Below are positions 1,997 to 38,869 of a stretch of DNA of 64,000 bases, in pieces; within the stretch, counting starts at the first letter, position 1; each line of letters starts with the position of its first letter. Position numbers and translations under genes: made by a program. The notes beneath the pieces are model-generated. The model was not told where the DNA came from, did no database searches, and worked only from the letters and a program-made list of their open reading frames with translations. The stretch is from an uncultured bacterium. Its GTDB lineage: Bacteria; Elusimicrobiota; Elusimicrobia; Elusimicrobiales; Elusimicrobiaceae. Location: positions 26,605 to 90,604 of the forward strand of contig CASFTM010000005.1 of assembly GCA_949297775.1 (NCBI GenBank), read 5' to 3'.

Positions 1997-2030
1997 AGCC
2001 AAAATTTATCAAAAAAAAAAAACAAATCAA
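1976..2030 (-). promoter_or_regulatory. Pilin start-site element copy 1: 16-bp IR, T12 tract, -35 TTGATT / -10 TAAATT
   Basis: Arms 1976-1991 and 2000-2015, spacer CTCATAGC, A12 at 2011-2022 on + strand; repeated at 4 other loci. Confidence 0.8.
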
Positions 2031-2188
2031 GGGGCGGGGCGCCCCTCCCCTCTTTTTACCCGTCAACGCGATTAGTTTAGGCCACACTGTTTGGGCACTG
2101 TCGCGCCCTTGCGTAACGGCCCAGAGGCTGGGCTCCCCACTCTATACCCGTTAGCGCGCTTAGCCTAGGCCACGCTGTTCCCGCACTG
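2031..2188. repeat. Pilin-upstream mosaic repeat (hairpin modules plus two 44-bp units)
   Basis: Segments shared with 14310-14379, 21379-21422 and 37508-37577. Confidence 0.75.
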
Positions 2189-2346
2189 CCGCTCTCCTAC
2201 GAAACAGCCCCAAACAGGGCCCCTGCCTACACCGCTCACACAACTGGCGGAACCGTACACTTATCCACAAACTGCGTAGTGCCCCATATAAAATGCCGCG
2301 GGGGCCTAGAGGCCCCGCAGACAAATGGTTATTGATAGCGTTTTGC

Positions 2347-5017: not shown

Positions 5018-5539
5018 TTAGGAGTCTAAATTCATAGACTTACACAAATAATTGCCTAAATCGGTATAACCGGTGCATTCCTCTACATTGGGATAAGAAG
5101 AATGTTGCAGCCATAAACTGATGGTGGCATCGCATCCAGAAAAAAGGTTGCCTCCTATCCCGCGGGAATGATAAAAAATTCTTACGCGGTTGGCCCCGGC
5201 CACCGCATTGGGGCCGGTAATATTTGCCACATAAGCAAAAGGGCAATCCAACCGATGATCTGCTGAATCCAGTTCGCACACTTGGGTATAGTCTACATCC
5301 AAATCTTCCACCGGGATTGAATATTTTCCATTTGCCAAGTAATACATTTCCTGCGCCCGGCGAATACCCTGCGCCATTTGGTAATAATTCATTAGCCTCG
5401 TTTTCTGCACGGCGCGTTGGTATTGAGGAAGCGCTACCGCCGACAAAATACCAATGATTAAAACAACTACTAACAATTCTATTAGCGTAAATCCGGCGTT
5501 TTTCTTAGCCGGGAAGGGTTTTTGATAAATTTTGGTCAT
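5018..5539 (-). CDS. Type IV pilin-like protein, palindrome class, copy 2
   Basis: KNAG|[24 protein letters not shown]; C-terminal CTGYTDLGNYLC. Confidence 0.9.
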   Translation of the reverse strand: MTKIYQKPFPAKKNAGFTLIELLVVVLIIGILSAVALPQYQRAVQKTRLMNYYQMAQGIRRAQEMYYLANGKYSIPVEDLDVDYTQVCELDSADHRLDCPFAYVANITGPNAVAGANRVRIFYHSRGIGGNLFSGCDATISLWLQHSSYPNVEECTGYTDLGNYLCKSMNLDS

Positions 5540-5573
5540 AGCCAAAATTTATCAAAAAAAAAAAACGAGTCAA
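5519..5573 (-). promoter_or_regulatory. Pilin start-site element copy 2 (-35 TTGACT, T12, -10 TAAATT, IR)
   Basis: Arms 5519-5534 and 5543-5558, spacer GTCATAGC, A12 at 5554-5565. Confidence 0.8.
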
Positions 5574-10628: not shown

Positions 10629-13607
10629 ATGAAAAAACAACCCTTTTTAATATGCTGCCTGTTAGCCTTGGCCCTGCCCGTTTTGGCGTGCCCGGATAAC
10701 GACAGCAACAACATACTGACGTATGACGACCAAACGGTGGCCGGGTTGGAAGAAATCGTTGCCGGGCACGGCCAGCAAAACGCCGACGGCAACTCGGTCA
10801 TCATTACAAACAGCACCATTCAAGACAACGGCAGCCCGCTGCGCAATTCCCAGGTGGTCGGCGGCTGGGCGGTGGAAGAAACGGCCAACCAAAACCGTGT
10901 TGAAATTACCGATTCCACCGTTAACCGCAACATTGTGGGCGGTCAATCCACCTTCGGCACGCAGGCCAACGGCAACGTGGTCAGCATTACGCAATCCAAA
11001 GTAAACGAAGGCGCCGCCCTGCAGGATATGACCACTCTTTCGGCATATCAAGCCGAGCACCGCTACGATGCCATGGGAAACGACACTTATGTCCTTTCCA
11101 GTATGGCATCCGATTCGGTACAAACCGCGGGAAATATCACTCCGGAGTCTTCTCTCTACACCACCTACGGAGGTATGGTAGCTAACGGCGAAGCCTGCGG
11201 CAACCAAATTATTGTTACAGGCGATGGCAGCGTGATAGGCAACAACTTAATGGCGGCCTATTCCCCTTATTTGGAAGAAACCCACCTGCACGACAATTCC
11301 GTTACGGTAACCAATGCCCAAGTAACAGGTTTAATTACAGGCGCCGGCAGTTTGGGGGCCAATTGGAATACCACCATACAAGACCCGCTGACCGTCAACA
11401 ATAATTCGGTGACAATTACCGCTTCCCAAATTAACGACGCTATCGGCGCGTACGGCGGCTTAACCACCAACGGAAACCGCATTACGCTCGTAAATTCTTC
11501 AGCAGACAACTTATACGGCGTTTCCTTTGGGCAGGACATTTTCTACTCCGGTTCCCAACCCGCCACCATTGAAAACACCGCCAACAATAACAGCGTTCTC
11601 CTTTATAGCAATTCCTCCGCCACGGGCAATATCTACGGCGCCCAAAGCCACAGCGTGCAAGCCTACGGCAACCAAGTGGTGTTAGCCGGCGGTTCCTCCG
11701 CCCAAGGCGATATTTATGGGGCGCATGTTTCCAACGCCCGCGTGCAAACCAGCGATACTACCACAGATTGGAACACCGTGCAGACCGCGGCGGAAAACAA
11801 TACGCTTTCTCTCTCCGGGTCCACCGCCGGGAACGCTTCGGCCCATATAGCCGCCGCCAAAAACTTCAGCGGCTGGGCGAACAATAATACCGTAGACATT
11901 ACGGATTCCACCGTCAGCGCCGCCATTTTGGCGGGCGGCTGGGCCGAACACGAACGCCAAACGCTGACCACCAAAGGCCAGCAGAATTTTTCCATCGGCT
12001 ACCAAGCCGACGGCAACACCGTTTCCGCTGTCGGAAGCCAGTTTTCCGTCACTGTTTACGGCGGGTTCGTATCCACCAAAGACGATATCAATCCGGACGC
12101 CCTAACCGATGACACGCCTTCCTCCGCTTCGTCCAACCTGGTTCACTTAGACTCTTCCACCTTAACCGGCAACGTGTACGGCGGCGCCGCACAAGGGGAT
12201 TACACCGCGGCGAATAACAACCGCGTATGGTTAACAGACGCACAAGTAACAGGGAGTGTATATGGGGCGTTGGCGGAAGGGACCACTTCGTCCGCCGCAC
12301 AAAACGAAGTGATTTTGCAAAACAGCACCGTCACAGGGGACGTATACGCCGCGTCCGCCGCGCAAAGCGGCAGCAACACCGTCACGCTTTCGGGCCAAAG
12401 CCGTGTGGACGGCACGGTATATGGCGGCAACGGCGGGAACAACCAGCTGACACTGCTGAATTTCCAAAGCGACCAAGCGTTAAATGTAAGCGGGTTTGAC
12501 AAGCCATATATCATCTCCGGGGCGGATACGTCCGTGATTTTCGCCCAGGACGTAGCCCAAGGGGAAGTGTACGTGCAGGGCGTGGACGCCGTGGACGGCC
12601 GCGTGATTATCCAAACGCCGGACGAAAATTCCAGCTTTACCCTGCACGCCGCCGACTCCGGCGTGTATACCTATTCGCTGACGCCGCAGGCCCAGTCCAG
12701 CGGGCTTACCGGCTGGCTGCTGGCGGGCGGATTTTCCAGTGCGCGGGCCAAAACATACGCCCAAACAAGTATGGCCGCCTTGGCGTTGGCCAACGCCGGG
12801 GATAATTTACTGACCGATGCCGTCAGCGCCGCCTGGCAGAGCGACCAGGAAACCGGCTCTTTCCTGCAAAGCGGCTACGAAGAAACCCGCCACGAAACAG
12901 GCAGCGGCGTACACTTAAACGCCACCACCGTGCTAGGCGGCCTGTACGCCAAAACCGGCGACTGGCTGGGCGGTTTTTACGCCCGCTATGCTTATGGGGA
13001 CTATCACACCTACCCGGTACGGGCGGAAAGTTATGCTTCTTCCTGGGCGGGCGGCGTATTCGGCGCGTGGAACGGGGTGGAAAATCTCCGGCTGGGGGCC
13101 GATGCGCGCCTCGGCTGGCAAAGCACCAGCTACGGCGGATCGGAAGAAACAGGGGCGTCGTTTGATTACGAAAGCGTATTTACCTCGCTGCAAGCGTCGG
13201 CCCAATATGGATTTTGGCAGGATATGCAAGCCGAAGCCCGCCTGCGCTGGACACACATCCAAGGGGACAGCTTGACCGACAATTTAGGCGAAGCCGTTTC
13301 CCTGCACGCCAGCGACAGTTTGCTGAGCACCGTGGGCGTCACGTATGCGCCCCGCGCCCTGGCGTTTAACTATTTTACGCCGGAAGTGAAGGTGCAATGG
13401 CTGCACGAATTTAACGGGAAAGGCTCCGCCGATGTAGAAGGGCACCGCATAGACGGGCTTTCCCTGCGCGGCAGCACCGGGCGGGTAAGTTTGGGGCTTA
13501 ACTATCAACGCCCCGAACAAGGATTATTGGCGCGGCTGGCCGGCTTTGTGCAAGGCGGCCAGATGGACGGCTGGGGGCTGAAATTGGACGCCGCTCTGCG
13601 CTTTTAG
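10629..13607 (+). CDS. Autotransporter-like outer-membrane protein with beta-helical passenger
   Basis: Signal peptide, N/S/T/G-rich repeats (GNIYGA...ANNNxV), about 280-aa amphipathic beta C-terminus ending in Phe. Confidence 0.8.
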   Translation: MKKQPFLICCLLALALPVLACPDNDSNNILTYDDQTVAGLEEIVAGHGQQNADGNSVIITNSTIQDNGSPLRNSQVVGGWAVEETANQNRVEITDSTVNRNIVGGQSTFGTQANGNVVSITQSKVNEGAALQDMTTLSAYQAEHRYDAMGNDTYVLSSMASDSVQTAGNITPESSLYTTYGGMVANGEACGNQIIVTGDGSVIGNNLMAAYSPYLEETHLHDNSVTVTNAQVTGLITGAGSLGANWNTTIQDPLTVNNNSVTITASQINDAIGAYGGLTTNGNRITLVNSSADNLYGVSFGQDIFYSGSQPATIENTANNNSVLLYSNSSATGNIYGAQSHSVQAYGNQVVLAGGSSAQGDIYGAHVSNARVQTSDTTTDWNTVQTAAENNTLSLSGSTAGNASAHIAAAKNFSGWANNNTVDITDSTVSAAILAGGWAEHERQTLTTKGQQNFSIGYQADGNTVSAVGSQFSVTVYGGFVSTKDDINPDALTDDTPSSASSNLVHLDSSTLTGNVYGGAAQGDYTAANNNRVWLTDAQVTGSVYGALAEGTTSSAAQNEVILQNSTVTGDVYAASAAQSGSNTVTLSGQSRVDGTVYGGNGGNNQLTLLNFQSDQALNVSGFDKPYIISGADTSVIFAQDVAQGEVYVQGVDAVDGRVIIQTPDENSSFTLHAADSGVYTYSLTPQAQSSGLTGWLLAGGFSSARAKTYAQTSMAALALANAGDNLLTDAVSAAWQSDQETGSFLQSGYEETRHETGSGVHLNATTVLGGLYAKTGDWLGGFYARYAYGDYHTYPVRAESYASSWAGGVFGAWNGVENLRLGADARLGWQSTSYGGSEETGASFDYESVFTSLQASAQYGFWQDMQAEARLRWTHIQGDSLTDNLGEAVSLHASDSLLSTVGVTYAPRALAFNYFTPEVKVQWLHEFNGKGSADVEGHRIDGLSLRGSTGRVSLGLNYQRPEQGLLARLAGFVQGGQMDGWGLKLDAALRF

Positions 13608-13678
13608 CGGATTTTCCCCCTAACCAAACGGCCCGCCAACCGGCGGGCCGTGGCTTGTTCAACACGTAAAGTATCCTT

Positions 13679-14173
13679 TTATTTGATGCCATACCAATAG
13701 CCGGACGCTTTTACTCCGGCTAATGCGGCACATTTTTTCGCGCCATTCCAGTTATACCCGAAACACACTACATCTGTTTGCCTTTTTTCTATTTTTAAAT
13801 AATACAGATGATCTCTTCTCACTGCAAACCCGACACCGGCCTCGCCCCCCTGTTTCAAGCGATAACTAAAATCCTTTGTCTGTTTAGCCCGATAGCCGTC
13901 CACTTCAATCTCTTCCCCGGGAACGGTAATATCCAGCTCGTCTATATTAGAAGCATAAACACCATTCGCCAAGTAATAGGATTCCTGGGCCTGCATAATT
14001 TTGCGCAACATGGCTACCGCTTCCAATCCGCGGGCTTTGTCTACCGCCCGCTGGTACTGCGGCAACGCCACCGCCGCCAAAATACCAATAATTAAAACGA
14101 CTACTAACAGCTCTATTAGCGTGAAACCGGCGTTTTTCCCCGCCGGGTAGGATTTTTGATAAATTTTGCTCAT
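13679..14173 (-). CDS. Type IV pilin-like protein, palindrome class, copy 3
   Basis: KNAG|[24 protein letters not shown]; divergent C-terminal domain with Cys pair. Confidence 0.9.
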
Positions 14174-14207
14174 ACGCAAAATTTATCAAAAAAAAAAAAC
14201 AAATCAA
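14153..14207 (-). promoter_or_regulatory. Pilin start-site element copy 3
   Basis: Arms 14153-14168 and 14177-14192, spacer CTCATACG, A12 at 14188-14199, TTGATT at 14202-14207. Confidence 0.8.
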
Positions 14208-14309
14208 CCCCCTTGCCGGGGGCAGGCTTTTTGGCCCCGGCCAAGGGGGTTGCCTAATACGGTACTTACGCTATTAGGGAACAACTGGTTGAGGATGTTC
14301 CTGCAAGGG

Positions 14310-14641
14310 GCCCAGCGCCTGGGCCCCCACTCTAGGCCCACCAACACGACTAATTGGGCCACACTGTTTTGCCGCACTACTAAAAAAGGAAAGCCGTTTC
14401 CGCTTATGTTGTTGTCGTGGTTGTAGCCGTTGCCGTTGCCGTGGTTATGGCCGTTTAACCGGCCCATTTGCCCCGTCTATAAAAAGCCTTCCAAGCGGAA
14501 AAGAAATTTTATTGTTTGAGCGCGGGGCAAAGCCCGCGCGAGTTATAAAATTTCCCGCTGGGAAGTGATTTTTATGGGGCCCTGGGCCGGGGCAGAGCCT
14601 GCCCTCCCATCTTTGGTACTTTTTCCCGCCGGAAAAAGTAC
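14310..14641. repeat. Pilin-upstream mosaic repeat with long hairpin module
   Basis: Homologous to 2119-2188, 37534-37770, 21331-21354 and 21452-21476. Confidence 0.8.
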
Positions 14642-14676
14642 AAATAAATTTATTTCTCTGACAAAAAATACCAACA

Positions 14677-14704
14677 AAAAACCCCGCTTGAAGCGGGGTA
14701 AAAA
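14677..14704 (-). terminator. Terminator downstream of tRNA-Glu
   Basis: ACCCCGC-ttgaa-GCGGGGT flanked by A-runs. Confidence 0.7.
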
Positions 14705-14712
14705 GAGAAATA

Positions 14713-14786
14713 CGTCCCGTACGAGATTCGAACTCGTGATCTCCGCCTTGAGAGGGCGGCGTCCTGGGCCACTAGACGAACGGGAC
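14713..14786 (-). tRNA. tRNA-Glu(CTC), CCA not encoded
   Basis: Cloverleaf: GTCCCGT/ACGGGAC acceptor, CCGCC-CTCTCAA-GGCGG anticodon arm, TTCGAAT T-loop. Confidence 0.95.
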
Positions 14787-18655: not shown

Positions 18656-18761
18656 CGGCACGCGTTTATAAAACGCTTGCTTTTAAAATAACCGGCCGGA
18701 AAGGACGCTTGCCCGCCAAGCCGATTTTCCGGCCGGTTTAATTTATCCGGAAACACTATTT

Positions 18762-19305: not shown

Positions 19306-19749
19306 TCAATTGGAAAAATCCATCCTATATCTGCCGCCCGATAAATCCATCCCGATATTTAAGCAGGTTTGGCCGTCACCTGTACACTCAATATAATTCA
19401 GATCTCCATTGGAATTATAAGCCTTTAGGGTATAGCTGCCATCCGCGCGGGACGTGGAAACCGTTACCGTATTCCCGGAAAAAGAAACAGTCGGCGTAGT
19501 AAAATAAGCGCTTTTGGTCACATCCCCCACCTGCAACGCGGAAGACCCCGTAATAGAGGACGGGTAGGAATTCCCATTAACCACGTATTGCGCATTGATT
19601 GCGTCGCTGGCGGCGCGCAGATTGGAAATGCCTTCCACGGAGCGGCCGCGCTCCAACGAGGCGTAATACTTCGGGAGAGCCACCGTTACCAATACGCCCA
19701 CTACCACCATGACAATTAACAATTCAATTAATGTAAAACCCTTGTTCAT
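19306..19749 (-). CDS. Type IV pilin-like protein, short-leader class
   Basis: MNKG|FTLIELLIVMVVVGVLVTVALPKY; AGGAGG RBS; no palindrome element. Confidence 0.88.
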   Translation of the reverse strand: MNKGFTLIELLIVMVVVGVLVTVALPKYYASLERGRSVEGISNLRAASDAINAQYVVNGNSYPSSITGSSALQVGDVTKSAYFTTPTVSFSGNTVTVSTSRADGSYTLKAYNSNGDLNYIECTGDGQTCLNIGMDLSGGRYRMDFSN

Positions 19750-21189: not shown

Positions 21190-21269
21190 AGATATCCGGC
21201 GTTTTTCCCCCAGGGAGAAGGTTTTGATACATTTTGTGTATGAGCAAAATCTATCAAAAAACAAATCAA
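21190..21269 (-). pseudogene. Decayed pilin 5' end with degenerate start-site element (spacer inverted, tract of 6)
   Basis: GGAAAAACGCCGGA...CTAATAG remnant of KNAGFTLIE coding DNA; arms 21222-21236 and 21245-21259; rest of gene absent. Confidence 0.75.
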
Positions 21270-21476
21270 GGGGCGGGCCGGCGCTCTTTTTCGCCCTTTT
21301 TCTGGCGGCAGGAAAAGGGCTGTATAATTAGTGATTTTTGTTGCTCCCTGGGGCACCGGGCCGCTGTTCCCCTGCCTTTACCCGTTACCGCGATTCGTGG
21401 AGCCACCTTGCTTCCGCGTTGCCGCACGCTTGTCAGGTTCCCCCTTCTTGGATACTTTTTCCGCCGGAAAAAGTAT
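21270..21476. repeat. Pilin-upstream mosaic repeat, rearranged module order
   Basis: Modules shared with 37771-37819, 37747-37770, 2057-2100 and 14616-14641. Confidence 0.75.
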
Positions 21477-21551: not shown

Positions 21552-21699
21552 TTACTTCACCGCGTTGTAACCAGCTTCCAACGCTTTTTTATTTTTATGG
21601 CATTAAAATCCCCTGGGCTTTCGCTCCAGGGGATAAATCTTCGCCTTCTAACGCACTTACTTCACCGCGTTGTAACCAGCTTCCAACGCTTTTTTATTT
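21552..21699. repeat. 43-bp perfect direct repeat duplicating the 3' end of the oxidoreductase gamma gene
   Basis: 21552-21594 is identical to 21657-21699. Confidence 0.92.
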
Positions 21700-36957: not shown

Positions 36958-37473
36958 CTAAAAATGAAGCGCTTTGCACAACCGGCGGCCGCGGTCGGTT
37001 GTGGCATCGCAAGTGATTGCGTTTGGATTGGAAGAATTGGCAAAAAATACATGCGCGGTAGCAATACGGGAGGAAGAACAAGTTCCGTCACCGGGGCAAT
37101 AAATGGCCCGCACCTGGTGCTGTGCTAAAGCGGGTTGTATTGACCCGTGGATATTATCCAGCTGTCCGTTTTCGCAGCGTATTTGGCTGGAATCATTGGC
37201 AAGAAGTTGACACGCCGAAGAATAATCCACATCCAAGTCCGCAAGCTTGATTGTATACGATCCGTTTGCCATATAATAAACTTCCTGCGCTTTGCGGATA
37301 TCCGACGCCATTTGGATGAGCGTCATCATACGAGATTTGTCCACCGCCAGTTGGTATTGCGGAAGCGCCACCGCCGACAAAATACCAATGATTAAAACAA
37401 CCACTAACAGCTCTATTAACGTAAATCCGGCGTTTTTCCCCGCCGGGAAGGATTTTTGATAAATTTTGGTCAT
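36958..37473 (-). CDS. Type IV pilin-like protein, palindrome class, copy 4
   Basis: KNAG|[24 protein letters not shown]; C-terminal CDATTDRGRRLC. Confidence 0.9.
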   Translation of the reverse strand: MTKIYQKSFPAGKNAGFTLIELLVVVLIIGILSAVALPQYQLAVDKSRMMTLIQMASDIRKAQEVYYMANGSYTIKLADLDVDYSSACQLLANDSSQIRCENGQLDNIHGSIQPALAQHQVRAIYCPGDGTCSSSRIATAHVFFANSSNPNAITCDATTDRGRRLCKALHF

Positions 37474-37507
37474 AGCCAAAATTTATCAAAAAAAAAAAAC
37501 AAATCAA
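37453..37507 (-). promoter_or_regulatory. Pilin start-site element copy 4
   Basis: Arms 37453-37468 and 37477-37492, spacer GTCATAGC, A12 at 37488-37499. Confidence 0.8.
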
Positions 37508-37819
37508 GGGGCGAGCCGCCCCTCCCCTCTTTTTACCCGTCAACACGATTAGCTTAGGCCACACTGCTCCTGCAATGTTGCACTGTTTCAAAAAGGAAGT
37601 TTTTCCGCTTGTATTTATGTCGTAGCCGTGGTTGTTGCCGTTTATCCGCCCCTTTAGAGCCGTCTACAAAAAGCCTTTCAAACGGATTAGAAATTTTATT
37701 GTTTGAGCGCGGGGACCGCGTGAGTTATAAAATTTCCCGTTTGAAAGTGATTTTTGTGGCTCCCTGGGGCGGCGCTCTTTTTCGCCCTTTTTCTGGCGTC
37801 AGAAAAAGGGCTATATAAT
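37508..37819. repeat. Pilin-upstream mosaic repeat (most complete copy)
   Basis: Contains modules also seen at about 2.0, 14.3-14.6 and 21.3 kb. Confidence 0.8.
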
Positions 37820-37955
37820 GAAGCTGTGCCCTTACGCAACAGCCCCGAGCCGGGGCTCCCCCTGGGCCGCCAACAATAAATAAAACCGCCGGGTGCGAAT
37901 GCCGGCGGTTTATAGGAGACCCCCTCGTCCCTGGCTTTAGGAAGAGGAAGCAAAT

Positions 37956-38726
37956 TTATTTGGCGGCTAATAAATTATCGTGTATACCAGTGTGGAAAAC
38001 AGCCAGATGCTCTTCCGACACGCCGCCCCAAAAGGACACCGGCAACCGCCGGGGAACCTCATTCACCAAAGCAACCGCTTTCCCTTGGTAAAAGAAAGGC
38101 TCCCCTTTTTGGAGCGTATTTTTTACGCCCGCCAGCCGGCTGGCACGCGGCGAAACAACCCCCCGATTTACAAAAAATTCCAATAATTTTTGCTGTACGC
38201 CTTTTCCAAAAACCTCATAAAGCGTTTCTCCTTCCGGCACAGCCGCCACCGGCACACCTTGTAACCCTTCCGTCAACCGGGAAGAAACAGCCACTCCGGC
38301 AAAATTTCCATTTATGCTTACGCTTCCCGCCGGGCCGCTCCCGCGGCGGCCATTGGCTAATTGTACACGTACTTTTTTTAAGGAAAATCCACTCGGTGCC
38401 TGGGCACACGAAGCCGTGGTAAGGATGCGGTTTTCCCCCGCCAACAATACCCCGCGGCAGGCCGTCGTTTGGCGCTCCGTTTTAACCAACACATCCCTGA
38501 ATCCGGGCCGGCGGGGCCGGCGGACGGTATCGCTTAAATAAACCGGTTTTTCCCATTCAAATACAAGCGTTGCCACCGCTTGTTCCTGGCGGTGCAGTTT
38601 TTCCGCCTCTACAGCCTGCCGGGTAAGCGCCGGCAGCATGCCGGCAGATTCCTGGGCAGATACATTTCCAGCGGCGCAAAGGGCAACGGTTGCGAACAAC
38701 ATTTTAATATACTGATTCCTTTTCAT
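37956..38726 (-). CDS. Secreted hypothetical protein, possible degenerate trypsin-like fold
   Basis: Signal peptide; CRGVLL...ILTTASC and GEPFFYQGKAV resemble trypsin motifs lacking the catalytic His and Ser. Confidence 0.6.
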   Translation of the reverse strand: MKRNQYIKMLFATVALCAAGNVSAQESAGMLPALTRQAVEAEKLHRQEQAVATLVFEWEKPVYLSDTVRRPRRPGFRDVLVKTERQTTACRGVLLAGENRILTTASCAQAPSGFSLKKVRVQLANGRRGSGPAGSVSINGNFAGVAVSSRLTEGLQGVPVAAVPEGETLYEVFGKGVQQKLLEFFVNRGVVSPRASRLAGVKNTLQKGEPFFYQGKAVALVNEVPRRLPVSFWGGVSEEHLAVFHTGIHDNLLAAK

Positions 38727-38869
38727 AAGACCTCGCTTTTGTTTGATAAATTTATTATACAAAAGTTAGGCAAAACTAACAAGTATTTTTCTAAAAACAA
38801 ATAACGCCCTTATAAAAAGGACGTTATTATGCATTAATAAACTAAAAAATAAAGTTAGCTAAAGCTATC

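What the first reader, a model, noticed from the sequence alone, without database searches (positions are those of the whole stretch)
14310..14641. Mosaic of shuffled hairpin modules upstream of the pilin loci
Seen: the upstream regions are built from shared blocks in different combinations and orders. Block B (GGGGCG..CGCCCC hairpin) is at 2031 and 37508. Block C (44-bp unit) is at 2057, 2145, about 14335, about 21379 and 37534. Block D (GCCCAG..CTGGGC hairpin) is at 2119 and 14310. Block E (long hairpin) is at 14489 and 37676. Block F (GTGATTTTT..CCCTGGG) is at 14565, 21331 and 37747. Block G is at 21293 and 37784, and block H at 14616 and 21452. Order is C-E-F-G at 37.5 kb but G-F-C-H at 21.3 kb. 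Stems are conserved while loops vary; block H has a compensatory outer pair (G-C versus A-T). Inferred: a BIME/REP-like or Neisseria-style inter-pilin repeat family, rearranged by recombination between loci, or a structured RNA family.
Basis: partly seen in the sequence, partly recalled or inferred. Interest (0 to 1): 0.72.

Follow-up and report, generated by a model that had tools for sequence, protein, structure and literature searches.

The report
Ordered repeat array upstream of pilin genes
The "shuffled hairpin blocks" are real, but they are one strictly oriented, ordered set of repeat modules, including a previously undescribed 125-nt hairpin, that sits upstream of the promoter of many pilin-like genes in a group of gut Elusimicrobia; what it does is still unproven.

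Summary
Every block exists at the stated coordinates and matches far beyond chance.

The blocks lie upstream of pilin-like genes on the minus strand of a bird-gut Elusimicrobiales genome. The same modules recur in at least 10 related species, and 478 of 478 directional modules share the orientation of their array, which is that of the pilin gene. They follow a fixed order: short hairpin G/H, long hairpin LH (blocks F+E+E2), C/A-rich spacer N, 73-nt element C, 15-nt GC hairpin, K, J, then a conserved promoter.

There is no true shuffling. The G-F versus F-G order arises because an F-like copy flanks G on both sides. The 21.3-kb locus is the canonical order with a deletion.

LH is a strongly covarying hairpin that is absent from Rfam. 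C is conserved in sequence but shows no structure, and it sits 57±1 bp from the -35 element.

At the tRNA-Glu site, array plus gene is present in some species and absent in others, and the array differs between orthologous sites.

My best reading is an insulator and regulatory region of self-contained pilin expression cassettes. Unequal recombination and deletion between repeated units produce the mosaic. Function is inferred, because the RNA data are inconclusive.

The parts
14613..14644 (-). H hairpin (GTACTTTTTCC-GGCG-GGAAAAAGTAC). It is the distal end of the U3 array, and G (37780-37813, 21289-21320) is the same hairpin type.
   Evidence: It is usually the first module of an array (GH->E 46, GH->F 26, GH->C 26). 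It is shared with the ortholog L159.
14589..14603 (-). Short GC hairpin GGGCAGGCTCTGCCC between H and the long hairpin.
   Evidence: The same hairpin occurs in L010, L087 and L133.
14462..14587 (-). Its core GGGAAATTTTATAACTCG is nearly invariant: the 18-mer used as an exact search pattern found it 77 times. An inner stem is flanked by A5 and T5 tracts.
   Evidence: RNA fold -60.6 kcal/mol with z -4.6 (sense) and z -5.4 (antisense). RNAalifold on 17 copies gives 41 pairs, 13 with compensatory double changes. Over 71 copies the stem cells are 2297 Watson-Crick, 31 G.U and 22 A.C.
14402..14461 (-). N, a C/A-rich, T-poor spacer of variable length built from CAAC/CGGC-like repeats.
   Evidence: There is no conserved start codon or open frame (and direct reading).
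14382..14401 (-). Small hairpin GGAAACGGCTTTCC followed by T6, which forms the 5' edge of the 'type 2' C unit.
14325..14389 (-). C unit: sequence-conserved with no supported structure. The best-conserved parts are GTGTGGC, TCG, CGGG and GGGGA.
   Evidence: nhmmer E 9e-12. All C hits in the first profile search are co-oriented with the pilin gene (68 of 68), and about 200 C hits across all loci show no exception. RNAalifold gives -2 kcal/mol. Information profile.
14307..14327 (-).
   Evidence: Across copies the stems are GCCCAG/CTGGGC, GGGGCG/CGCCCC, GGCCAG/CTGGCC or GCACCG/CGGTGC, with a constant 6+3+6 size.
14252..14305 (-). K module (CTTGCAGGAACATCCTCAACCAGTTGTTCCC... followed by the small inverted repeat CCTAATA..TATTAGG).
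   Evidence: 25 of 25 hits are co-oriented. It follows C in 56 arrays.
14207..14253 (-). J, a 17-bp GC-rich hairpin that abuts the -35 element. With the T-rich run after it, it looks like an intrinsic terminator in the pilin sense.
   Evidence: Terminator-like site 14223..14207. It is 100% identical to L159.
14171..14207 (-). Promoter module A: TTGATTTG-T12-GATAAATTTTGCGT-ATG. Read as -35 TTGATT, a 16-bp spacer that includes the T12 run, -10 TAAATT, and the ATG 7 nt downstream.
   Evidence: The T run is exactly 12 in 64 of 88 copies. There is no Shine-Dalgarno motif, although 23 of 36 other window genes have one.
13679..14173 (-). Pilin-like gene served by this array.
   Evidence: Pfam N_methyl and ComP_DUS. 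Aligned with its paralogs.
2031..2225 (-). U1 array: GC hairpin B (2031-2045), C (2046-2119), hairpin D (2119-2133), C (2134-2207) and a further hairpin (2208-2225), upstream of the pilin gene at 1469-1996.
21270..21476 (-). U4 array: H (21447-21476), C (21368-21431), F-like copy (21330-21354), G (21289-21320), then a deletion junction straight into a degenerate promoter (T6) and a 13-codon pilin remnant (21194-21250).
37508..37858 (-). U5 array: D-like hairpin (37843-37858), G (37780-37813), LH (37646-37772), N (37603-37644), C (37523-37596) and B (37508-37522), upstream of promoter A (37474-37507) and the pilin gene at 36958-37473.
   Evidence: DNA fold of LH -39.1 kcal/mol, z -8.9.

Best explanation
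The region is the upstream part of a self-contained pilin expression cassette.

Shown:
- A clade of gut Elusimicrobiaceae carries, upstream of many pilin-like genes, a strictly co-oriented array.
- The array is built from tandem, variably truncated iterations of one composite unit: G/H hairpin, 125-135-nt long hairpin LH (blocks F+E+E2), C/A-rich spacer N, 73-nt element C, 15-nt GC hairpin, K, then J.
- Every array ends in a GC hairpin that abuts a conserved promoter-like module, TTGAYTYG-T12-GATAAATTTTGnnT-ATG.

Inferred mechanism:
1. The gene is driven by its own sigma-70-type promoter (-35 TTGAYT, 16-bp spacer holding the T12 run, -10 TAAATT). The ATG lies 7 nt after the -10, and there is no Shine-Dalgarno motif.
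2. The hairpins insulate this promoter from outside transcription. LH has an inner stem flanked by A5 and T5 tracts and can fold on both strands, as a bidirectional terminator would. The last hairpin plus the T-rich run is terminator-like in the sense direction.
3. C is a sequence-specific, probably protein-bound, upstream element held 57±1 bp from the -35.
4. The mosaic look comes from unequal recombination, tandem duplication and deletion between repeated units, and from segment exchange between paralogous cassettes. It does not come from permutation.
For: Orientation and grammar:
- 478 of 478 directional modules agree in orientation within their array.
- The adjacency matrix is strongly constrained: E->E2 85, N->C 43, C->A 59, C->K 56 (maps).
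- LH copies found by an 18-mer alone, without reference to pilin genes, are followed by E2-(N)-C-...-A in the window's clade.

Conservation:
- The modules keep 75-95% identity across at least 10 species-level genomes.

Promoter:
- TTGA and GATAAATTTTG are near-invariant, and the T run is exactly 12 in 64 of 88 copies.
- Locus U2 has only this module in a 69-bp intergenic region.
- There is no Shine-Dalgarno motif, although most other genes have one.
- The tRNA-Glu promoter reads TTTACG-17-TAAAT-like, showing sigma-70-type signals in this organism (direct reading).

C spacing:
- GTGTGGC lies 56-59 bp from the -35, and exactly 57 bp in 24 of 39 arrays, despite different hairpin sequences in between.

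LH:
- 13 or more covarying pairs; z -4.6 to -8.9.
- G.U and A.C are about equally rare, as expected if both strands must pair.
- In rumen and other relatives, lone G/H+LH units sit downstream of co-oriented genes in 8 of 9 cases.
- One such unit lies in the glgP-trmL spacer, where the window has an ordinary hairpin terminator instead.

Terminator-like sites:
- Sites directly before the promoter at 14223..14207 and 37524..37506.

Dynamics:
- The 1,022-bp unit 13652-14673 is missing in L158 and L167, where the flanking terminators abut.
- The orthologous arrays of the window and L159 differ internally.
- U4 is the canonical string with a deletion.
Against: - No transcription start or end has been mapped, so the promoter, insulator and protein-site roles are all inferences.
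- Metatranscriptome contigs cover the T12 tract and sequence upstream of it at the same low depth as pilin coding sequence. If these derive from RNA, they argue against a strictly leaderless start.
- The nearly invariant 18-nt core and the asymmetric internal loops of LH are more than a terminator needs.
- Outer LH pairs beyond the T5 tract also covary, which termination alone does not explain.
- The pilin genes and their neighbours already have ordinary terminators, so the need for extra insulators is unclear.
- Conservation in C shows no 10-11-bp periodicity.
- No candidate binding protein was identified.
Confidence: 0.42

Rival explanations
1. The array is transcribed in the pilin sense as a structured leader or as separate small RNAs. 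The last hairpin plus the U-rich run acts as an attenuator that controls read-through into the pilin gene, and LH and C are RNA elements bound by a protein or ligand.
For: - The hairpins covary.
- A terminator-like hairpin plus T-run lies 25 nt before the ATG.
- Low-depth metatranscriptome contigs join E2-N-C and cover LH and the T12 region.
- Hand-drawn helices in C pair in 84% of cells, with many sense-strand G.U pairs.
Against: - For C, shuffles reach 82% pairing, and RNAalifold finds only 4 pairs at -2 kcal/mol.
- The N-C-K part is no more stable than shuffled sequence on either strand (mean z 0.05 and -0.08).
- LH shows no G.U excess over A.C (31 versus 22).
- About half of the pilin loci have the promoter module alone.
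- An exact T12 is not needed for a terminator.
- The multi-copy repeats could reach assembly depth from trace DNA, and the contigs carry no strand information.
- There is no Rfam match.
Confidence: 0.22
2. The modules are selfish or recombination-promoting intergenic repeats (REP/BIME-, NIME-, BOX-, ERIC- or MITE-like). Their main effect is to provide homology for gain, loss and exchange of pilin cassettes, giving surface variation.
For: - Array plus gene is present in some species and absent in others at one site.
- Orthologous arrays differ by a replaced segment.
- There is a truncated pilin remnant with a deleted array.
- One genome carries dozens of copies; about 35 LH copies are in CALUQD.
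- Lone LH copies occur in other intergenic regions of relatives.
- LH is close to ERIC in size and shape.
Against: - Orientation relative to the pilin gene is 100% fixed, the order is fixed, and C sits at a fixed distance from the -35.
- Position-specific subtypes are shared across species rather than homogenised within a genome.
- No terminal inverted repeats or target duplications appear at the cassette junctions.
- No transposase, RAYT or recombinase is among the flanking genes.
- None were found in viral contigs.
Confidence: 0.2
3. The blocks are decayed fragments of a former gene, of a pilin gene, or of an insertion sequence.
For: The blocks become collinear once many copies are aligned. 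One pilin remnant exists at 21194-21250.
Against: - There is no significant DNA or protein similarity between the arrays and the pilin genes (best E 0.01 for a 13-nt match).
- There is no conserved open frame.
- Cross-species conservation and stem covariation indicate selection, not decay.
Confidence: 0.02

Closest known systems
BIME/REP elements of enterobacteria
   Same: Both are intergenic mosaics built from short GC-rich palindromic units combined with other short motifs. They occur many times per genome and are often terminator-like.
   Different: REPs have a conserved GTAG head and occur in alternating orientations. They sit mostly at the 3' ends of genes and are linked to RAYT transposases. 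Here the orientation is uniform, the units sit upstream of one gene family, and no RAYT gene lies beside them.
Neisseria intergenic mosaic elements (NIME: RS units flanked by dRS3) near pilE/pilS
   Same: Both are repeat mosaics concentrated near pilin and other surface-protein genes, and both are thought to favour recombination.
   Different: NIME units are bounded by one conserved 20-bp inverted repeat. Here the separators are 15-nt hairpins whose sequence varies. The order is fixed and ends in a promoter at fixed spacing.
BOX elements of Streptococcus pneumoniae (boxA-boxB(n)-boxC)
   Same: Both have an ordered modular build with variable repetition of internal modules, and both are hairpin-forming and intergenic.
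   Different: The sequences are unrelated. BOX elements are dispersed in both orientations near many kinds of genes.
ERIC/IRU 127-bp imperfect palindromes; Correia elements
   Same: LH is a long imperfect palindrome of about 125-135 nt, found in many copies in intergenic DNA. In relatives it also occurs as lone copies downstream of genes.
   Different: There is no sequence relation and no terminal repeats or TA duplication. LH has a nearly invariant 18-nt core and stems that covary between subtypes, and in this clade it is locked into the pilin array.
Phase-variable promoters with a homopolymer in the -35/-10 spacer (Mycoplasma hyorhinis vlp poly-A; Bordetella fim poly-C; from my own knowledge)
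   Same: In both, a multigene surface-protein family shares a conserved promoter whose spacer is a long homopolymer. Copy-to-copy lengths range from 6 to 16 around a sharp optimum.
   Different: Switching has not been shown here, and no within-population length variation could be read from contigs.

Membership tests
REP/BIME | About 35-bp imperfect palindrome with a conserved GTAG-type head | tested here: not met
   The hairpins are 15 nt (6+3+6) with variable stems preceded by GGGGAG. No GTAG head is present.
REP/BIME | Units in alternating (inverted) orientation within a cluster | tested here: not met
   478 of 478 directional modules are co-oriented, and tandem C units lie head-to-tail.
REP/BIME | Associated RAYT (Y1 transposase) gene | tested here: inconclusive
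   The genes flanking the five window loci are housekeeping genes or give no Pfam match (POT, NUDIX, amidase, UvrD, DUF1646, MFS, POR, YgjP-like, and two ORFs without a match); none is a transposase. The whole genome was not searched.
NIME (Neisseria) | Repeat units each flanked by the same ~20-bp inverted repeat (dRS3) | tested here: not met
   The separators differ in sequence between units (GCCCAG.., GGGGCG.., GGCCAG.., GCACCG..).
MITE / Correia-like element | Terminal inverted repeats plus target-site duplication at insertion junctions | tested here: not met
   The filled-versus-empty comparison at the tRNA-Glu site shows no TIR and at most a 3-4-nt ambiguous match. The lone LH copies were not tested this way.
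Any Rfam RNA family | Match to a curated covariance model | tested here: not met
   At gathering thresholds only two tRNAs are found in the 64 kb. The E-value scan of 14150-14720 gives only weak chance hits.
Structured RNA (generic) | Base pairs supported by compensatory changes | tested here: met
   Met for LH only: 13 of 41 pairs have double changes in 17 copies, and at least 12 pairs covary in 71 copies. Not met for C or for N-C-K.
Structured RNA (generic) | Strand-specific tolerance of G.U over A.C, and evidence of transcription | tested here: inconclusive
   G.U 31 versus A.C 22 of 2414 stem cells. Only low-depth, unstranded contigs of a multi-copy sequence are available.
Intrinsic terminator | GC-rich stem followed directly by a T run | tested here: met
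   The last hairpin before the promoter qualifies (14223..14207; 37524..37506). The inner LH stem is flanked by A5 and T5 tracts. Function was not tested.
Phase-variable promoter with homopolymer spacer | Homopolymer between -35 and -10 whose length varies within a population and switches expression | not testable with these tools
   Length varies between paralogous copies (6-16, mode 12). Contigs give no within-population variants.

The most novel reading that the evidence does not exclude
The arrays, together with the T12-spacer promoter, form a dedicated pilin-variation system of gut Elusimicrobia. In this reading each pilin cassette is switched on or off by slippage in the T tract. The LH and C modules are recognition sites, for a still unidentified protein or as RNA, that coordinate which of the dozens of cassettes is expressed or exchanged. 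LH would then be a new class of conserved nucleic-acid element with a sequence-specific partner.
Probability: 0.15. Interest if true: 0.8.

Novelty: new variant of a known kind. Interest (0 to 1): 0.58.

Why it matters
Gut Elusimicrobia carry dozens of pilin-like genes whose roles and control are unknown.

This work shows that many of these genes come as discrete cassettes. Each has a near-identical promoter with no ribosome-binding site and an exact T12 spacer, preceded by a conserved, ordered array of repeats. That gives concrete, testable elements for how a large surface-protein family is insulated, regulated, gained and lost in an uncultivated gut lineage:
- the T tract;
- the 73-nt C element at fixed spacing;
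- the 125-nt covarying hairpin.

The long hairpin is not in Rfam and I found no description of it, so it is a candidate for a new curated motif.

The result also corrects an attractive but wrong impression of module shuffling.

Tried and rejected
- **Known RNA families.** The Rfam gathering scan of the window and an E-value scan of the region gave nothing.
- **C as a structured RNA.** RNAalifold gave 4 pairs at -2 kcal/mol. My hand-drawn helices pair in 84% of cells against 82% in shuffles. Rejected.
- **Choosing the strand from G.U versus A.C.**
  - In the short GC hairpins the count was confounded by the conserved flanks and was about equal inside the stems.
  - In LH the counts were 31 versus 22.
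  - No decision was possible.
- **Sense versus antisense folding of the N-C-K part.** Neither strand beats shuffled sequence.
- **Small ORFs in N.** The ATG in the window copy is not conserved, and in-frame stops occur upstream (and direct reading).
- **Modules as decayed pilin genes.** No significant blastn or tblastn match. The 13-nt similarity of H to the pilin 5' coding hairpin has E 2.3.
- **A conserved motif at pilin 3' ends that would mark a cassette border.** Only ordinary terminators are present.
- **Sigma-54 or ECF-type promoter in C.** By eye, the spacing and conservation do not fit.
- **Strict sigma-70 scan.** It found no promoter because the window copies score 8 of 12.
- **10-11-bp periodicity of conservation in C.** Absent.
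- **RNA evidence.** Six metatranscriptome runs were laid on the window in five calls, alongside DNA or untyped runs. They gave only low-depth unstranded contigs.
- **A second orthologous comparison through the gene at 37956-38762.** Only two distant hits.
- **LH in viral contigs.** None.
- **Literature.** Three searches found no description.

Full report
**Setting**

The window (51.5% G+C) comes from an Elusimicrobiales bacterium of bird or chicken gut metagenomes. It carries four pilin-like genes of one family on the minus strand: 1469-1996, 5018-5539, 13679-14173 and 36958-37473. All have the Pfam N_methyl domain and align well with one another. A 13-codon remnant lies at 21194-21250.

The finding (14310-14641) lies in the 533-bp spacer between the pilin gene at 13679-14173 and tRNA-Glu at 14713-14786, which has its own terminator at 14674-14699. 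Read in the pilin sense, this spacer is the upstream region of the gene.

**Check of the observation**

The compensatory outer pair in H is also real.

The matches are far beyond chance:
- A profile of block C finds the five window copies with E-values from 7e-18 to 1e-9, and nothing else in the 64 kb.
- In 80 loci (about 640 kb) of related genomes chosen through the unrelated DUF1646 gene, modules appear at four pilin-type promoters, three of which carry only the promoter module. Three lone long-hairpin copies were also found.

**The family beyond the window**

I fetched 80 pilin loci from other Elusimicrobiales genomes. The same modules are present in many of them, often several times.

Profiles for each block show that every non-palindromic module is co-oriented with the pilin gene:

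| Module | Co-oriented hits |
|---|---|
| C | 68 of 68 |
| K | 25 of 25 |
| E2 | 19 of 19 |
| F | 14 of 14 |
| N | 11 of 11 |
| J | 8 of 8 |

A scan with the nearly invariant 18-mer of block E, made without reference to pilin genes, returned 77 loci. About 72 are Elusimicrobiales, and roughly 35 come from one genome. In the window's clade these copies are again followed by E2-(N)-C-...-promoter.

Over all loci, 478 of 478 directional modules agree in orientation within their array. The adjacency matrix is tightly constrained:
- E->E2: 85
- E2->N: 48; E2->C: 26
- N->C: 43
- C->promoter: 59; C->K: 56; C->G/H: 24; C->C: 23; C->F: 20
- K->C: 27; K->promoter: 21; K->J: 15
- F->E: 27; F->G/H: 20

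The arrays are therefore tandem, variably truncated iterations of one composite unit: G/H, F-E-E2, N, C, GC hairpin, K, then J. Every array ends at the promoter.

**No true shuffling**

The C-E-F-G versus G-F-C-H contrast is explained by an extra F-like copy that precedes G in the canonical string, C-F'-G-F-E. The 21.3-kb array aligns collinearly with L005 through C, F', G and the foot of the long hairpin (GAAAAAGAGCGCCGGCCC). It then jumps straight to the promoter-proximal hairpin, which marks a deletion.

**Anatomy of the modules**

*Long hairpin (LH).* Blocks F, E and the 60 nt after E form one long hairpin.
- RNAalifold on 17 copies gives 41 pairs at -39 kcal/mol, with compensatory double changes in 13 pairs.
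- In 71 copies at least 12 pairs switch between different Watson-Crick pairs.
- The window copies fold with z -4.6 (sense RNA), -5.4 (antisense RNA) and -8.9 (DNA).
- Stem cells are 2297 Watson-Crick, 31 G.U and 22 A.C. The data therefore do not say which strand folds, or whether RNA or DNA does.
- The inner stem is flanked by A5 and T5 tracts that pair with each other, which is the layout of a bidirectional terminator.
- The core GGGAAATTTTATAACTCG..CTCAAACAATAAAATTTC and its asymmetric loops are nearly invariant.

*C unit.* C is 73 nt long and conserved in sequence (GTGTGGC, TCG, CGGG, GGGGA), but it has no supported structure.

*N-C-K stretch.* This part is no more stable than shuffled sequence on either strand.

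*Short GC hairpins.* They keep a 6+3+6 size while their stems change by compensation.

*Other checks.* Nothing matches Rfam. The modules are not related to pilin coding sequence and carry no conserved open frame.

**The promoter module**

All loci, including those without arrays, share TTGAYTYG-T(n)-GATAAATTTTGnnT-ATG. The T run is exactly 12 in 64 of 88 distinct copies, with a range of 6 to 16.

I read this as -35 TTGAYT, a 16-bp spacer, -10 TAAATT, and the ATG 7 nt downstream. There is no Shine-Dalgarno motif, although 23 of 36 other genes in the window have one. This points to a leaderless or near-leaderless mRNA. It also points to a spacer whose length could switch expression.

The proximal C core lies 56-59 bp from the -35, and exactly 57 bp in 24 of 39 arrays. 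The hairpin between them, together with the T-rich run, is terminator-like in the sense direction.

**Evolutionary dynamics**

At the tRNA-Glu/DUF1646 site:
- In L158 and L167 the 1,022 bp from 13652 to 13673... see next line.
- Correction of the span: the missing segment is window 13652-14673 (array, promoter and gene), and in L158 and L167 the two flanking terminators abut directly.
- Most other close relatives also show no modules at this site.
- L164 has the promoter and gene only.
- L159 has H-C-K-J-promoter.

The window and L159 share H on one side and K-J-promoter on the other, with 100% identity over about 120 bp. The segment between them differs. Recombination and deletion between paralogous arrays are therefore real.

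In more distant relatives (rumen, mouse and bird MAGs), the G/H+LH pair occurs alone in other intergenic regions. In 8 of 9 cases it sits downstream of a co-oriented gene. One example is the glgP-trmL spacer, where the window has an ordinary hairpin terminator instead. LH is therefore older than the pilin arrays and occupies terminator-like positions.

**Expression data**

Only Logan contigs of metatranscriptomes were available. Low-depth contigs (2-13) cover LH, join E2-N-C, and cover the pilin 5' end including the T12 tract. Coverage of this organism is sparse. The sequences are multi-copy, so trace DNA could produce them, and there is no strand information. I treat this evidence as inconclusive. 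It does, however, count mildly against a strictly leaderless start.

**Interpretation**

The best-supported reading is a cis-acting insulator and regulatory region of self-contained pilin cassettes. The hairpins block outside transcription from both sides. C acts as a sequence-specific upstream site. The promoter carries a length-critical T tract. The mosaic arises by unequal recombination and deletion.

The main rivals are a transcribed leader or small-RNA system with an attenuator, and a REP/NIME/ERIC-like repeat family whose main effect is cassette exchange. None of the tested defining features of REP/BIME, NIME or MITEs is met. The resemblance to those families lies in general style, not in membership.

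I found no description of these elements in three literature searches.

Noticed in passing
window 1997-2030, 5540-5573, 14174-14207, 37474-37507 (degenerate copy 21226-21270): The pilin promoter module has a T run of exactly 12 in 64 of 88 copies across genomes (range 6-16). It has invariant TTGA and GATAAATTTTG and no Shine-Dalgarno motif. This suggests a leaderless mRNA and a possibly phase-variable -35/-10 spacer.
   Followed up: partly
window 14160-14194 and the equivalent positions at the other pilin starts: A 14-nt inverted repeat, TTTGATAAATTTTG-N8-CAAAATTTATCAAA, brackets the start codon. The upstream arm is invariant, and changes in the coding arm are not compensated. It is therefore more likely an operator or promoter feature than an RNA hairpin.
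   Followed up: partly
window 21194-21250: A pilin remnant of only about 13 codons lies behind a degenerate promoter (T6) and an internally deleted array.
   Followed up: yes
window 13652-14673 versus L158 and L167: The whole array-plus-pilin unit is an insertion/deletion polymorphism between the terminator of the 992-aa gene and the tRNA-Glu terminator. No clear target duplication is visible.
   Followed up: yes
L181:7150-7330, L194, L198, L098 (rumen Elusimicrobium MAGs); window 18656-18761: A lone G-hairpin plus long-hairpin unit lies between glgP and the SpoU/TrmL methylase gene in distant relatives. The window has an unrelated long hairpin terminator in the same spacer.
   Followed up: partly
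window 21552-21594 and 21657-21699: A perfect 43-nt direct repeat duplicates the 3' end of the pyruvate:ferredoxin oxidoreductase gamma gene 105 bp downstream.
   Followed up: no
window 10629-13607: A 992-aa repeat-rich ORF has no Pfam match. It may be an autotransporter-like surface protein. It is 81-94% identical in DNA to relatives.
   Followed up: no
window 19306-19749 (minus strand): A second kind of pilin-like gene has the N_methyl motif at residues 2-25. It did not come up in the profile searches for the shared promoter module and arrays.
   Followed up: no
window 13679-14173: This pilin matches Pfam ComP_DUS (the DNA-uptake-sequence receptor minor pilin) at 31.3 bits, above the gathering score. 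The paralogs do not match it.
   Followed up: no
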